A stretch of 64,000 nt of DNA from Escherichia coli. GTDB taxonomy: Bacteria > Pseudomonadota > Gammaproteobacteria > Enterobacterales > Enterobacteriaceae. The notes below the pieces were generated by a model. The model ran no database searches, was not told the origin of the DNA, and saw only the letters and a program-made list of their open reading frames with translations. Both the position numbers and the translations under genes were made by a program. The DNA lies in the NCBI RefSeq assembly GCF_003018255.1, contig NZ_CP027440.1, one strand, 5' to 3'. Below, in pieces: positions 23,857 through 26,639 of this stretch; position 1 is the stretch's first letter, and each line of letters opens with the position of its first letter.

Positions 23857-23972
23857 GACTCCTCCAGTGAGAAAACAGAGCAAAAAGATAAGTATAGATG
23901 CTGGAGGAGGGGCGATTTTAAATGAGAGGAATCTGGTGTGCCTCCCTTTCGGAGGAAAGGGAGGCTGAGAAG

Positions 23973-24695
23973 TTAAGAGACGTGCTGCAAAAATTCCTGC
24001 AAGCGCTGGCTCGGTGGGTTCTTGATCAACACCTGCGGATCGCCATCTTCCGCAATCCGGCCTTTGTCGATAAAGATCAGGCGCGAAGCTACTTTCTCGG
24101 CAAAACCGATTTCGTGTGTCACGATCACCATCGTCATCCCTTCTTCAGCCAGATCCTGCATAACCTTCAGCACTTCATGGCGCAGTTCCGGGTCAAGAGC
24201 GGAAGTCGGTTCATCAAACAGCATCATTTTCGGCTTCACCGCCAGCGCGCGTGCGATCGCCACACGCTGCTGTTGACCACCAGAAAGTTCGGAAGGGTAG
24301 TGATGTGCACGTTCTGCCAGACCGACTTTCGCCAGCAGCTCACGCGCCAGTTTTTCCGCCTCTTCTTTGTTCGCGCCACGCACGCGTAGCGGACCAAACA
24401 TGACGTTTTCCAGCGCCGTCAGATGCGGGAAGAGGTAAAACTGCTGGAACACCATACCTGCTTCCTGGCGAATCAGGCGCTCGTCAACTTTCGGATCGTT
24501 AACCTTCAGGCCATCGACAATCAGATCGCCGGAAGTGATTTCTTCCAGTTTGTTGATGCAGCGCAGCAGGGTCGATTTACCGGAACCGGACGGCCCGATA
24601 ATCACCACGACTTCGCCCTGAGCAATGTTCAAATCGATATTGTGCAGCACCTGGGTTGGACCAAAATGCTTGGAGACGTTTTTAAATTCAATCAC
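23973..24695 (-). CDS. glnQ: Glutamine ABC transporter ATP-binding protein
   Basis: Walker [13 protein letters not shown] signature [15 protein letters not shown], Walker [13 protein letters not shown]. Confidence 0.95.
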
Positions 24696-25351
24696 AGGAT
24701 TTTCATCCTTCTTTCCAGACGACGCAGAATAAAGCTCAGCACCAGGGTAATAATCAGATAGAACACCGCCACGGCGCTCCAGATCTCAAGGGCGCGGAAG
24801 TTACCGGCAATAATTTCTTGCCCCTGACGGGTCAGTTCCGCCACGCCGATAACAATAAACAGCGAGGTGTCTTTAATGCTGATGATCCACTGGTTACCCA
24901 GCGGCGGCAGCATACGACGCAGTGCCAGCGGTAAAATGACGTAGCGAATGGTTTCCCAACGTGAAAGACCGAGCGCCAGTCCTGCTTCACGAAAACCTTT
25001 GTGAATAGACAGCACCGCACCACGCGTGATTTCCGCAATGTATGCGCCGGAGTTGATCATGATGGTGACCACCGCCGCAGTAAATGGGTCGATGCGTAAG
25101 TCGTTAAATGCCATCGGCAGGGCGAAATAGATAAACATCACCTGGACGACGATAGGTGTGCCGCGGATCACTTCAATAAAGACCAGCGCGACGTGGTTGG
25201 CTATCCAACCACCGAAGGTGCGTGCAAAACCTGCCAGCAATCCGATCACCAGGCCGCCAGCCAGACCGAGGACCGAGATCCACAGGGTCATTTTGGCACC
25301 TTCAATCAGAAGCGGAATGGCAGGCCAGATGGCACTCCAGTCAAACTGCAT
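24692..25351 (-). CDS. glnP: Glutamine ABC transporter permease
   Basis: 219-aa membrane protein, 4-bp overlap with glnQ. Confidence 0.95.
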
Positions 25352-25409
25352 ATGTTGTTCCTGTTACCGTGGTGTAAATAATCAAATTCAGGGTAATTAA
25401 TGGCCCCGG

Positions 25410-25480
25410 AGCGGGTTTGCGCCCCTCACCCTAATCCTCTCCCCAGAGGGGAGAGGGAACTGCCAGTGCGCCTTACAGGC
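25410..25480 (-). repeat. Intercistronic palindromic element between glnH and glnP
   Basis: Perfect palindrome cctctccccagaggggagagg (25436-25456) embedded in a GC-rich block. Confidence 0.5.
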
Positions 25481-25489
25481 GTAGCGTTA

Positions 25490-26251
<762 letters not shown>

Positions 26252-26282
26252 CTATCCACGGGACGATCCCCTGCGTGACATT

Positions 26283-26307
26283 CACATATATGAAAAAATC
26301 GTGCCAG
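26283..26307 (-). promoter_or_regulatory. Candidate sigma-54 (-24/-12) promoter for glnH
   Basis: Minus-strand reading TGGCACGATTTTTTCATA: GG at -24 and a weak -12 element (TTTCA for TTGCA), ~45-70 bp upstream of the glnH ATG. Confidence 0.45.
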
Positions 26308-26379
26308 TTTTGCAACTCATTGATTTTTCGAGATGCGGCAAAAACGTGATGCACGATTTATAGGGCAATACCCTGAAGA

Positions 26380-26430
26380 TGCACCATTCTGGGGCACCAA
26401 ACTGGTGCGCTAAAATTGTGCACTCAACAC
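26380..26430 (-). promoter_or_regulatory. Candidate NtrC enhancer sites upstream of glnH
   Basis: tgcaccattctggggcaccaaactggtgcgc contains overlapping TGCACC-N-GGTGC dyads resembling NtrC sites. Confidence 0.4.
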
Positions 26431-26639
26431 AGTGATTATTTAGCGTAAAACCTGATGAAAAAACAATCTTTATGTAACGATTGTGTGATGATGTGGATAC
26501 AAAAAATTTACTTAATCAGCTGAAGATAGCAGATGGATGCACTAAATAAGTGCGTTGAGGCGGGCTACAAAACAAAACGGCCTCCTGTCAGGAAGCCGCC
26601 TTTATCGTGTACTAAAGTTCTGCACCATCAGCGATGGAT

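What the first reader, a model, noticed from the sequence alone, without database searches (positions are those of the whole stretch)
25410..25480. Perfect GC-rich palindrome in the glnH-glnP intercistronic spacer
The 138-bp gap between glnH and glnP contains cctctccccagaggggagagg (a perfect 9-bp-stem hairpin) within a GC-rich block. Such a structure between a binding-protein gene and the membrane-component genes is the classic arrangement for a partial terminator or RNA stabiliser giving high binding-protein to permease expression ratios.
Basis: partly seen in the sequence, partly recalled or inferred. Interest (0 to 1): 0.25.

Follow-up and report, generated by a model that had tools for sequence, protein, structure and literature searches.

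The report
BoxC repeat hairpin ending glnH mRNA
The palindrome between the E. coli glutamine-transporter genes glnH and glnP is real, is a copy of the known dispersed "BoxC" repeat, and sits exactly where published RNA-end mapping finds a stable RNA 3' end, so it probably protects a glnH-only message; this is an ordinary mechanism carried by a repeat not previously credited with it.

Summary
The window is E. coli. The 138-bp glnH-glnP spacer (25352-25489, genes on the minus strand) holds a perfect 9-bp/3-nt-loop hairpin at 25436-25456.

It is the core of a BoxC repeat (also called PIT or TMECO), a GC-rich element present at a median of about 10 places per E. coli genome. The glnHP copy is 34/36 identical to the commonest K-12 copy.

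- Published Term-seq data (Adams 2021) list an RNA 3' end at MG1655 847200(-), which is window 25432. That is 4 nt after the stem, and it appears in all three growth conditions.
- The spacer of 77 other Enterobacteriaceae species (≤250 nt) also carries a strong stem-loop after glnH, but of unrelated kinds: REP-like, or terminator-like with a T-run. BoxC occupies this site only in E. coli.
- No U-tract follows the stem. The site is not in the published Rho-termination list. PIT elements showed no terminator activity in earlier reporter tests.

The best reading is therefore an exonuclease-blocking 3'-end stabiliser of a glnH-only mRNA, analogous to REP in malEFG, rather than a partial terminator. 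A glnH excess over glnPQ was not measured here. Interest is low to moderate.

The parts
25490..26236 (-). glnH (periplasmic glutamine-binding protein), first gene of glnHPQ
   Evidence: ORF of 248 aa. Annotated glnH in a strain identical over the queried stretch and in MG1655.
25352..25489 (-). glnH-glnP intercistronic spacer, 138 nt
   Evidence: Present at >=95% identity in 5401 of 5426 complete E. coli genomes.
25411..25471 (-). BoxC / PIT / TMECO-type repeat copy. Approximate limits: 5' flank gcgcactggcagtt, a 36-nt three-block core at 25422-25457, 3' flank cgcaaacccgc.
   Evidence: Alignment with ten MG1655 copies gives 32 invariant columns out of 71. The core is 34/36 identical to Table 1 entries 9/16/19/22 of Holder 2015. 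A 90-nt query finds a median of 10 places per genome.
25448..25456 (-). 5' arm of the RNA hairpin (CCUCUCCCC), within C-rich block 1 (25449-25457)
   Evidence: Invariant in six E. coli alleles.
25445..25447 (-). Hairpin loop (UCU here; UAU in K-12; GCC in ST131 and DE17)
25436..25444 (-). 3' arm of the RNA hairpin (GGGGAGAGG), within G-rich block 2
   Evidence: Invariant in seven E. coli alleles, including the IS-disrupted B2.3 allele.
25432..25432 (-). Position equivalent to the published Term-seq RNA 3' end, MG1655 847200(-): the A of GGAUUA, 4 nt after the stem
   Evidence: Adams 2021 Supplementary file 1. Coordinates mapped through L002: window x = MG1655 x + 821768.
25422..25431 (-). Third G-rich block (GGGTGAGGGG), the potential triplex-forming strand of the repeat. 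It lies downstream of the RNA 3' end.
   Evidence: Polymorphic among E. coli strains: GGGTGAAGGG, or a 1-nt deletion.
25467..25479 (-). Small strain-specific hairpin CGCCU-GUA-AGGCG (-6.4 kcal/mol). It is absent in K-12, which reads CACCUGUAAAACG.
25375..25401 (-). AU-rich single-stranded segment (19% G+C) between the repeat and the glnP ribosome site. Inferred entry site for endonuclease.
   Evidence: Composition. The nuclease role is inference only.
25352..25374 (-). Conserved glnP leader CACCACGGUAACAGGAACAACAU: Shine-Dalgarno sequence and GlnZ sRNA pairing site (C-18 = 25369)
   Evidence: This part of the spacer is conserved in nearly all of the 78 species spacers extracted; only the Serratia loci diverge. 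GlnZ pairing just upstream of the SD is shown in Walling 2022 and Miyakoshi 2022.
24692..25351 (-). glnP (permease)

Best explanation
The palindrome is the Watson-Crick hairpin (blocks 1 and 2) of a BoxC/PIT repeat. In E. coli this repeat occupies the slot just downstream of glnH. Related species have a REP-like or terminator-like stem-loop in that slot instead.

The hairpin is transcribed as part of glnHPQ mRNA. It defines a stable RNA 3' end 4 nt after its base. This step is shown by published Term-seq data.

The most likely way this end arises is inferred, not shown. The full-length transcript is cut or decays in the AU-rich spacer or in glnPQ. The 3'-to-5' exonucleases PNPase and RNase II then trim back and stall at the -18 kcal/mol stem. 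This leaves a long-lived glnH-only message while glnPQ sequences are lost. The outcome would be more binding protein than permease and ATPase, as REP does in malEFG and hisJQMP.

Translation of glnP is controlled separately, about 55 nt downstream, by the GlnZ sRNA.
For: Identity as a BoxC copy:
- The core is 34/36 identical to the commonest K-12 copy and the flanks are shared.
- A 90-nt query finds a median of 10 places per genome in 5425 genomes.

RNA 3' end:
- MG1655 847200(-) is in the curated Term-seq list for all three conditions, with 30,332 and 130,459 reads in the two LB conditions. It maps to the A 4 nt after the stem.
- Two further BoxC copies have Term-seq ends 3-4 nt after block 2: lldD at 3781065(+) and antisense to rluF at 4231270(-). 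They are transcribed in the opposite orientation, so the third block is not what sets the end. For lldD the predicted fold is the same block 1-block 2 hairpin. For the rluF copy the minimum-energy fold pairs the outer C block with block 2 instead.
- This matches the general finding that stable 3' ends lie just downstream of stem-loops without U-tracts, which protect against PNPase and RNase II (Dar & Sorek 2018 abstract).

Comparative evidence:
- All 77 orthologous spacers of 250 nt or less have a hairpin of -14.9 kcal/mol or stronger.
- The median fold z-score over 79 spacers is -2.6.
- A pattern scan of the 80 loci gave 36 REP-like, 30 terminator-like with a T-run (4 of them both), 16 other and 2 with no spacer recovered. 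None outside E. coli has BoxC.

Within E. coli:
- Both stem arms are invariant in six alleles, while the loop, the third block and the upstream flank vary.
- The glnHP copy carries T where ten other copies have G, which makes the stem perfect: -18.3 versus -16.7 kcal/mol.

Discoordinate behaviour of the operon:
- In Salmonella, a GlnZ pulse lowers glnP and glnQ more than 4-fold, and glnH is not on the list.
Against: - I could not obtain any measurement of glnH versus glnPQ mRNA or protein levels, or of their half-lives.
- Term-seq shows steady-state ends only. It cannot separate termination from processing, and it does not prove the hairpin causes the end.
- Other BoxC copies show no Term-seq end: the one after the highly expressed adk, and those at pstA-pstB and zntA-tusA. 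So BoxC is not generally sufficient. Peak calling used uniquely mapped reads, which could hide ends inside near-identical copies.
- Stem invariance across six alleles is weak evidence. By my own rough estimate, about 9 variable sites spread over about 77 nt would miss all 18 stem positions by chance with p of about 0.09.
- BoxC could have been fixed at this site neutrally.
Confidence: 0.6

Rival explanations
1. Partial transcription terminator. RNA polymerase stops at the hairpin in a fraction of rounds, so fewer transcripts reach glnPQ.
For: A 3' end lies right after a GC-rich stem. In about 30 of the 80 related loci the equivalent hairpin is followed by a T-run, like an intrinsic terminator, for example CAGGGGCGGCUUUCGCCCCUG followed by CUAUUUUUGA. 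This suggests attenuation at this site may be ancestral.
Against: The E. coli stem is followed by AUUAGGGUGAGGGG, with no U-tract, and the scan found no minus-strand terminator-like site in the spacer. The end is 4 nt after the stem, shorter than the usual 7-9 nt (the usual distance is from my own knowledge). PIT/BoxC elements were reported to have no promoter or terminator activity. The site is not among the bicyclomycin-sensitive Rho regions.
Confidence: 0.15
2. Passenger repeat with no selected function. BoxC is a dispersed, possibly once-mobile element that landed in or replaced the spacer's middle part. The RNA end is an incidental result of any stable stem in a transcript.
For: BoxC copies lie in many unrelated intergenic contexts with no functional pattern. 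The middle of the spacer is non-homologous even among Escherichia species. TMECO loci are reported to be unusually variable. One strain has an IS element inside the hairpin.
Against: The site holds some strong stem-loop in every species examined, so loss appears not to be tolerated. The locus is fixed in 5401 of 5426 E. coli genomes at >=95% identity. This copy has a stem-perfecting base that ten other copies lack.
Confidence: 0.2
3. DNA-level element. The three blocks fold into an intrastrand purine-motif triplex (H-DNA-like) on the displaced non-template strand. This would affect replication, recombination or RNA polymerase passage.
For: Consensus TMECO oligonucleotides form stable triplexes in vitro, and the loci are associated with genomic variability (Holder 2015). 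In glnHPQ the G-rich, triplex-capable strand is the non-template strand.
Against: In vivo DMS footprinting in that paper did not support stable triplex formation. The glnHP copy departs from the triplex consensus, since block 2 ends in A. Its third block is polymorphic or shortened in major lineages while the hairpin arms are invariant. The RNA end lies between blocks 2 and 3, and copies in the opposite orientation give the same kind of end.
Confidence: 0.05

Closest known systems
BoxC repeat of E. coli, also called PIT element (Hoyne et al. 2000) or TMECO triplex motif (Holder et al. 2015, PMC4666352)
   Same: Same three-block core and the same flanks. It is 34/36 identical to the commonest K-12 copy. 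It is intergenic and multi-copy.
   Different: Block 2 ends in A rather than G, so it fails the strict TMECO search pattern and is not among the 23 listed K-12 copies. It has T rather than G in block 1, which gives a perfect block 1-block 2 hairpin. It coincides with a strong RNA 3' end, whereas in the sources I read no RNA-level function is ascribed to the family.
REP/BIME stem-loops in malE-malF and hisJ-hisQ (Newbury et al. 1987; named from established knowledge, not read here)
   Same: A stable stem-loop without a U-tract, immediately after the binding-protein gene of an ABC importer operon. An RNA 3' end lies at its base. The proposed protection from 3' exonucleases would give more binding protein than membrane components.
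   Different: Unrelated sequence family. Stabilisation and differential expression have not been tested for glnHPQ. Sister Escherichia species, Citrobacter, Enterobacter and Salmonella do have REP-like hairpins at this very site.
Protective 3' stem-loops of Rho-dependent or processed transcripts (Dar & Sorek 2018, PMC6061677)
   Same: A precise steady-state 3' end immediately downstream of an energetically stable stem-loop that is not followed by uridines.
   Different: No Rho-dependent termination region is reported downstream in glnP. The upstream event that exposes a 3' end is therefore unknown.
Intrinsic (Rho-independent) terminator or attenuator
   Same: A GC-rich stem after a gene. Orthologous spacers in Kosakonia, Buttiauxella, Cedecea, Atlantibacter and others carry a true terminator-like stem plus T-run.
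   Different: The E. coli element has no U-tract.

Membership tests
BoxC dispersed repeat | Sequence similarity over roughly 50-56 bp to the other genomic copies | tested here: met
   Alignment A4 with ten MG1655 copies has 32 invariant and 5 near-invariant columns out of 71. The flanks gcgcac-ggac/tggc-agt and aac..cccgc are shared.
BoxC dispersed repeat | Many dispersed copies per genome, in intergenic DNA | tested here: met
   A 90-nt query finds 58,302 places in 5425 genomes, with a median of 10 per genome. All fetched copies lie between genes. Published counts are 22-32 copies.
TMECO / PIT strict intrastrand-triplex motif | Pattern CCCTCNCCC N3-6 GGGNGAGGG N3 GGGNGAGGG | tested here: not met
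   Block 2 is GGGAGAGGA, one base off. The locus is absent from Table 1 of Holder 2015. It matches only when the pattern is relaxed.
TMECO / PIT strict intrastrand-triplex motif | Forms an intrastrand triplex | not testable with these tools
   This needs CD, NMR or chemical probing of this variant. The third block is polymorphic among strains.
Intercistronic mRNA-stabilising stem-loop (REP-like function) | Stable stem-loop just downstream of the upstream cistron, transcribed within the operon | tested here: met
   The hairpin is -18.3 kcal/mol. Its 5' arm begins 34 nt after the glnH stop codon, on the mRNA strand.
Intercistronic mRNA-stabilising stem-loop (REP-like function) | In vivo RNA 3' end at the 3' base of the stem | tested here: met
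   Looked up in published Term-seq data: 847200(-) on all three condition sheets, 4 nt after the stem.
Intercistronic mRNA-stabilising stem-loop (REP-like function) | Upstream segment more abundant or longer-lived than the downstream segment, and dependent on the stem | not tested
   No accessible dataset gave glnH versus glnPQ levels or decay. The only indirect hint is the Salmonella GlnZ pulse, which affects glnPQ but not glnH.
REP / BIME sequence family | REP consensus sequence (GCC[GT]GATG...CATC[CA]GGC type or CCCGG...CCGGG type) | tested here: not met
   The E. coli spacer has no REP-type arm. Sister species do.
Intrinsic terminator | GC-rich stem followed within 0-2 nt by a run of at least 5 U in 8 | tested here: not met
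   No minus-strand site in the spacer. The tail is AUUAGGGU.
Rho-dependent terminator | Bicyclomycin-sensitive read-through region | tested here: not met
   Adams 2021 Supplementary file 2 has no entry at 8457xx, 8464xx or 8470xx-8472xx; the single '8470' string hit in that file was not at this locus. This rests on one published dataset in one condition.
Rfam RNA families | Match at or above the gathering score | tested here: not met
   The best overlapping hits score 15 bits against thresholds of 37-40.

The most novel reading that the evidence does not exclude
BoxC/PIT elements have been discussed for 30 years as DNA triplex or 'instability' motifs, with no RNA-level function ascribed to them in the sources I read. 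Some of them may in fact act at the RNA level as exonuclease-blocking 3'-end stabilisers. Under this reading, a BoxC copy at glnHPQ functionally replaced the ancestral REP or terminator hairpin. It was then tuned by a stem-perfecting G-to-T change and now sets the GlnH:GlnPQ ratio in E. coli.
Probability: 0.35. Interest if true: 0.4.

Novelty: new member of a known kind. Interest (0 to 1): 0.3.

Why it matters
If the hairpin does stabilise a glnH-only message, three things follow.
- It would give a concrete RNA-level role to one copy of a repeat family whose function has stayed open since the 1990s.
- It would show unrelated structured elements (terminator, REP, BoxC) swapping into the same regulatory slot of an operon during enterobacterial evolution.
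- It would explain how the GlnZ sRNA can repress glnPQ without touching glnH.

The mechanism itself is textbook (malEFG, hisJQMP), so the gain is incremental.

Tried and rejected
- Rfam scan of 24600-26600 at permissive E-values found only sub-threshold chance hits.
- A search for other copies of the repeat in the 64-kb window found none.
- The terminator scan found no minus-strand site in the spacer. The plus-strand hits at 25467-25512 have no upstream plus-strand gene and were dismissed.
- The plus-strand ORF 25400-25900 (166 aa), antisense to glnH, was treated as spurious.
- The spacer of the locus labelled 'E. coli' SCPM-O-B-8794 (L013) was tested as a possible alternative E. coli allele. 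Its full length occurs in 0 of 5426 E. coli genomes, so I infer it belongs to a separate Escherichia lineage.
- Further 3'-end or expression data could not be retrieved. Supplements of Dar & Sorek 2018 and Choe 2022 are not held. The TERMITe supplements have no glnH or glnP entry. Li et al. 2014 is not held. Mao 2007 has no Northern or glnP data.
- A literature search for BoxC together with glnH found nothing relevant.
- The idea that all BoxC copies mark RNA ends was rejected. The adk, pstA-pstB and zntA-tusA copies have none in Adams 2021.

Full report
**1. The observation**

The window is E. coli. A 90-nt stretch around the finding is 100% identical to many sequenced strains. The flanking ORFs are annotated ybiO, glnQ, glnP, glnH, dps and rhtA in such a strain and in K-12.

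All of these genes are on the minus strand. glnH is 25490-26236 and glnP is 24692-25351.

The palindrome CCTCTCCCC-aga-GGGGAGAGG lies at 25436-25456 and is perfect, with a 9-bp stem and a 3-nt loop. In the mRNA sense it reads CCUCUCCCC-UCU-GGGGAGAGG. Its predicted energy is -16.8 to -18.3 kcal/mol, and it forms in the minimum-energy fold of the whole spacer, whose z-score is -2.6.

A perfect 9-bp stem is only mildly surprising by itself. Shuffled windows give 1.5 entries, or 0.24 with at least 7 G-C pairs, and the real window has about 11 such loci. Its significance comes from what follows.

**2. What it is**

The hairpin is blocks 1 and 2 of a three-block repeat. On the mRNA strand, 25457-25422 reads CCCTCTCCCC-TCT-GGGGAGAGGA-TTA-GGGTGAGGGG.

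This is the BoxC element. It was later renamed PIT, for potential intrastrand triplex, and then TMECO. The published consensus is CCCTCNCCC N3-6 GGGNGAGGG N3 GGGNGAGGG (Holder et al. 2015).

- The glnHP copy is 34/36 identical to the commonest K-12 copy, CCCTCGCCCCTCTGGGGAGAGGGTTAGGGTGAGGGG.
- I fetched ten K-12 copies and aligned them. There are 32 invariant columns out of 71, and the similarity extends into both flanks.
- A 90-nt query finds a median of 10 places per genome in 5425 of 5426 complete E. coli genomes.
- The family is listed at 22-32 copies of 50-56 bp in earlier surveys.
- The glnHP copy is absent from the published list of 23 K-12 TMECOs. The reason is that its block 2 ends in A rather than G.
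- It also has T where all ten other copies have G in block 1. This removes the internal G·A mismatch and makes the block 1-block 2 hairpin perfect, at -18.3 versus -16.7 kcal/mol.
- Rfam has nothing for this sequence.

**3. Evidence on function: RNA ends**

Such data already exist.

Adams et al. 2021 (eLife, Supplementary file 1) list a curated Term-seq 3' end at MG1655 847200(-) on all three condition sheets. The counts are 30,332 reads in LB OD 0.4 and 130,459 in LB OD 2.0. The third occurrence is on the remaining sheet, and I did not read its count. The authors class the end as 'orphan' because it lies 58 nt past the glnH stop codon, just outside their 50-nt rule for 'primary' ends.

I mapped coordinates through locus L002: window x = MG1655 x + 821768. 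The end is the A of GGAUUA. This is window 25432, 4 nt after the last paired G and immediately before block 3.

The site is not in the paper's table of bicyclomycin-sensitive Rho termination regions.

Two further BoxC copies have Term-seq ends 3-4 nt after block 2. One is the primary end of lldD at 3781065(+). The other is an RNA antisense to rluF at 4231270(-). Both are transcribed in the opposite orientation. The third block therefore cannot be what sets these ends. For lldD the predicted fold is the same block 1-block 2 hairpin. For the rluF copy the minimum-energy fold pairs the outer C block with block 2 instead.

Not all copies behave this way. No ends are listed at the copies after adk, between pstA and pstB, or between zntA and tusA. 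One caveat applies: peaks were called on uniquely mapped reads, which could hide ends inside near-identical copies.

**4. Evidence on function: comparison across species**

I recovered the orthologous locus from 80 species representatives and extracted 78 glnH-glnP spacers.

- None outside E. coli contains BoxC.
- All 77 spacers of 250 nt or less contain a hairpin of -14.9 kcal/mol or stronger.
- The median whole-spacer fold z-score is -2.6, and 71% of spacers are below -2.
- The hairpins are of unrelated kinds.
  - REP-like GCCCGG...CCGGGC occurs in E. albertii, a cryptic Escherichia lineage, Citrobacter, Enterobacter and Salmonella.
  - Terminator-like GGGGCG...CGCCCC plus a T-run occurs in Kosakonia, Buttiauxella, Cedecea, Atlantibacter and others.
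  - Long palindromes plus CAGAGG..CCUCUGUUUU occur in Klebsiella and Raoultella.
- Two parts of the spacer align among the Escherichia species: the first few bases after the glnH stop codon, and the last 35 nt or so.
- That last stretch is also conserved in nearly all the other species; only the Serratia loci diverge. It holds the Shine-Dalgarno sequence and the experimentally verified GlnZ sRNA pairing site.

So a stem-loop after glnH is maintained while its sequence family turns over. That is what selection for structure, rather than sequence, would produce.

Within E. coli the locus is fixed: 5401 of 5426 genomes carry it at >=95% identity over 191 nt. In six alleles sampled across the identity range, both stem arms are invariant. 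The loop varies (UCU, UAU, GCC). The third block varies (GGGTGAGGGG, GGGTGAAGGG, or a 1-nt deletion). The upstream flank also varies. This pattern favours the hairpin over the triplex as the constrained feature. With so few variable sites the statistical weight is small; my rough estimate is p of about 0.09.

**5. Mechanism**

Shown:
- A BoxC hairpin is transcribed within glnHPQ.
- A reproducible steady-state RNA 3' end lies 4 nt after it.

Inferred:
- The end arises by 3'-exonuclease trimming that stalls at the stem, after cleavage or decay downstream. The 19% G+C segment at 25375-25401 is a plausible endonuclease entry site.
- This leaves a stable glnH-only mRNA and therefore an excess of binding protein.

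This matches the general rule reported by Dar & Sorek 2018, that stable ends lie just after U-less stem-loops which protect against PNPase and RNase II. It also matches the classical REP cases in malEFG and hisJQMP, which I cite from established knowledge rather than from papers read here.

A true partial terminator is less likely.
- The stem is followed by AUUAGGGU, and no minus-strand terminator-like site is detected.
- PIT elements were reported to lack promoter and terminator activity.
- No Rho signal is listed for the site.

The discoordinate response in Salmonella is compatible with a separately stable glnH segment. There, a GlnZ pulse lowers glnP and glnQ more than 4-fold, and glnH is not listed. 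However, that species has a REP-like hairpin at the site rather than BoxC.

**6. What remains untested**

- I could not retrieve any dataset giving glnH versus glnPQ mRNA or protein levels or half-lives.
- Causation by the stem is not shown.
- The element could still be a passenger repeat that produces an incidental RNA end.

**7. Comparison with known systems, and novelty**

By sequence this is a member of the BoxC family. It is a near-miss of the strict TMECO triplex pattern.

By function it resembles REP-type intercistronic stabilisers, but it is not a REP. It is not an intrinsic terminator.

The element, the locus and even the RNA end are already in public data for the best-studied bacterium. 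I did not find the connection between them in the literature I could search: a BoxC hairpin as the 3'-end determinant of glnH mRNA, occupying a slot that REP or terminator hairpins fill in relatives.

I rate it a new member of a known kind, with low-to-moderate interest.

Noticed in passing
L097:1-1723 (E. coli strain B2.3); breakpoint equivalent to about window 25452: An IS21-family element (ISEc10, istA/istB) is inserted inside the 5' arm of the BoxC hairpin, separating glnH from glnPQ. This recalls IS targeting of REP hairpins and the reported instability of TMECO loci.
   Followed up: partly
window 25467-25483: This segment just after the glnH stop is highly polymorphic among E. coli strains. 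The window strain has a 5-bp hairpin CGCCU-GUA-AGGCG. ST131 has UGCGC..GCGCA. K-12 has no pairing here.
   Followed up: partly
window 23940-23965 (minus strand): An 11-bp perfect hairpin GCCUCCCUUUC-cucc-GAAAGGGAGGC lies right after glnQ. It also has no U-tract and is likely the 3'-end structure of the whole glnHPQ transcript. The glnQ-ybiO spacer is much shorter here than in K-12 (about 116 nt in the matching strain 7/2 versus about 260 nt).
   Followed up: no
L005:496-530 (MG1655 pstA-pstB spacer): Another BoxC copy sits in an intercistronic spacer of an ABC-transporter operon (pstSCAB), transcribed in the opposite orientation. No Term-seq 3' end is listed there in Adams 2021.
   Followed up: partly
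MG1655 848057(-) and 848340(-), approximately window 26289 and 26572: Adams 2021 also lists a 3' end 53 nt upstream of the glnH start, inside the glnH 5' UTR (LB OD 2.0), which could be an attenuation or processing site. A strong end at the dps terminator coincides with weak Rfam hits at 26567-26600.
   Followed up: no
L042 (Intestinirhabdus alba, 466-nt spacer) and L090 (Serratia sp. H1w, 232-nt spacer): These glnH-glnP spacers are much enlarged by additional structured inserts. In L090 there is a -34 kcal/mol long palindrome. This shows the site repeatedly accepts repeat insertions.
   Followed up: no
Alignment A4, column 24 (window 25452): In all ten other K-12 type-A BoxC copies, block 1 has a G. 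That G mismatches block 2 but wobble-pairs with block 3, so their RNA prefers block 1-block 3 pairing (for example -28.4 kcal/mol for the adk copy). The glnHP copy has T, which switches the preference to the simple block 1-block 2 hairpin.
   Followed up: partly
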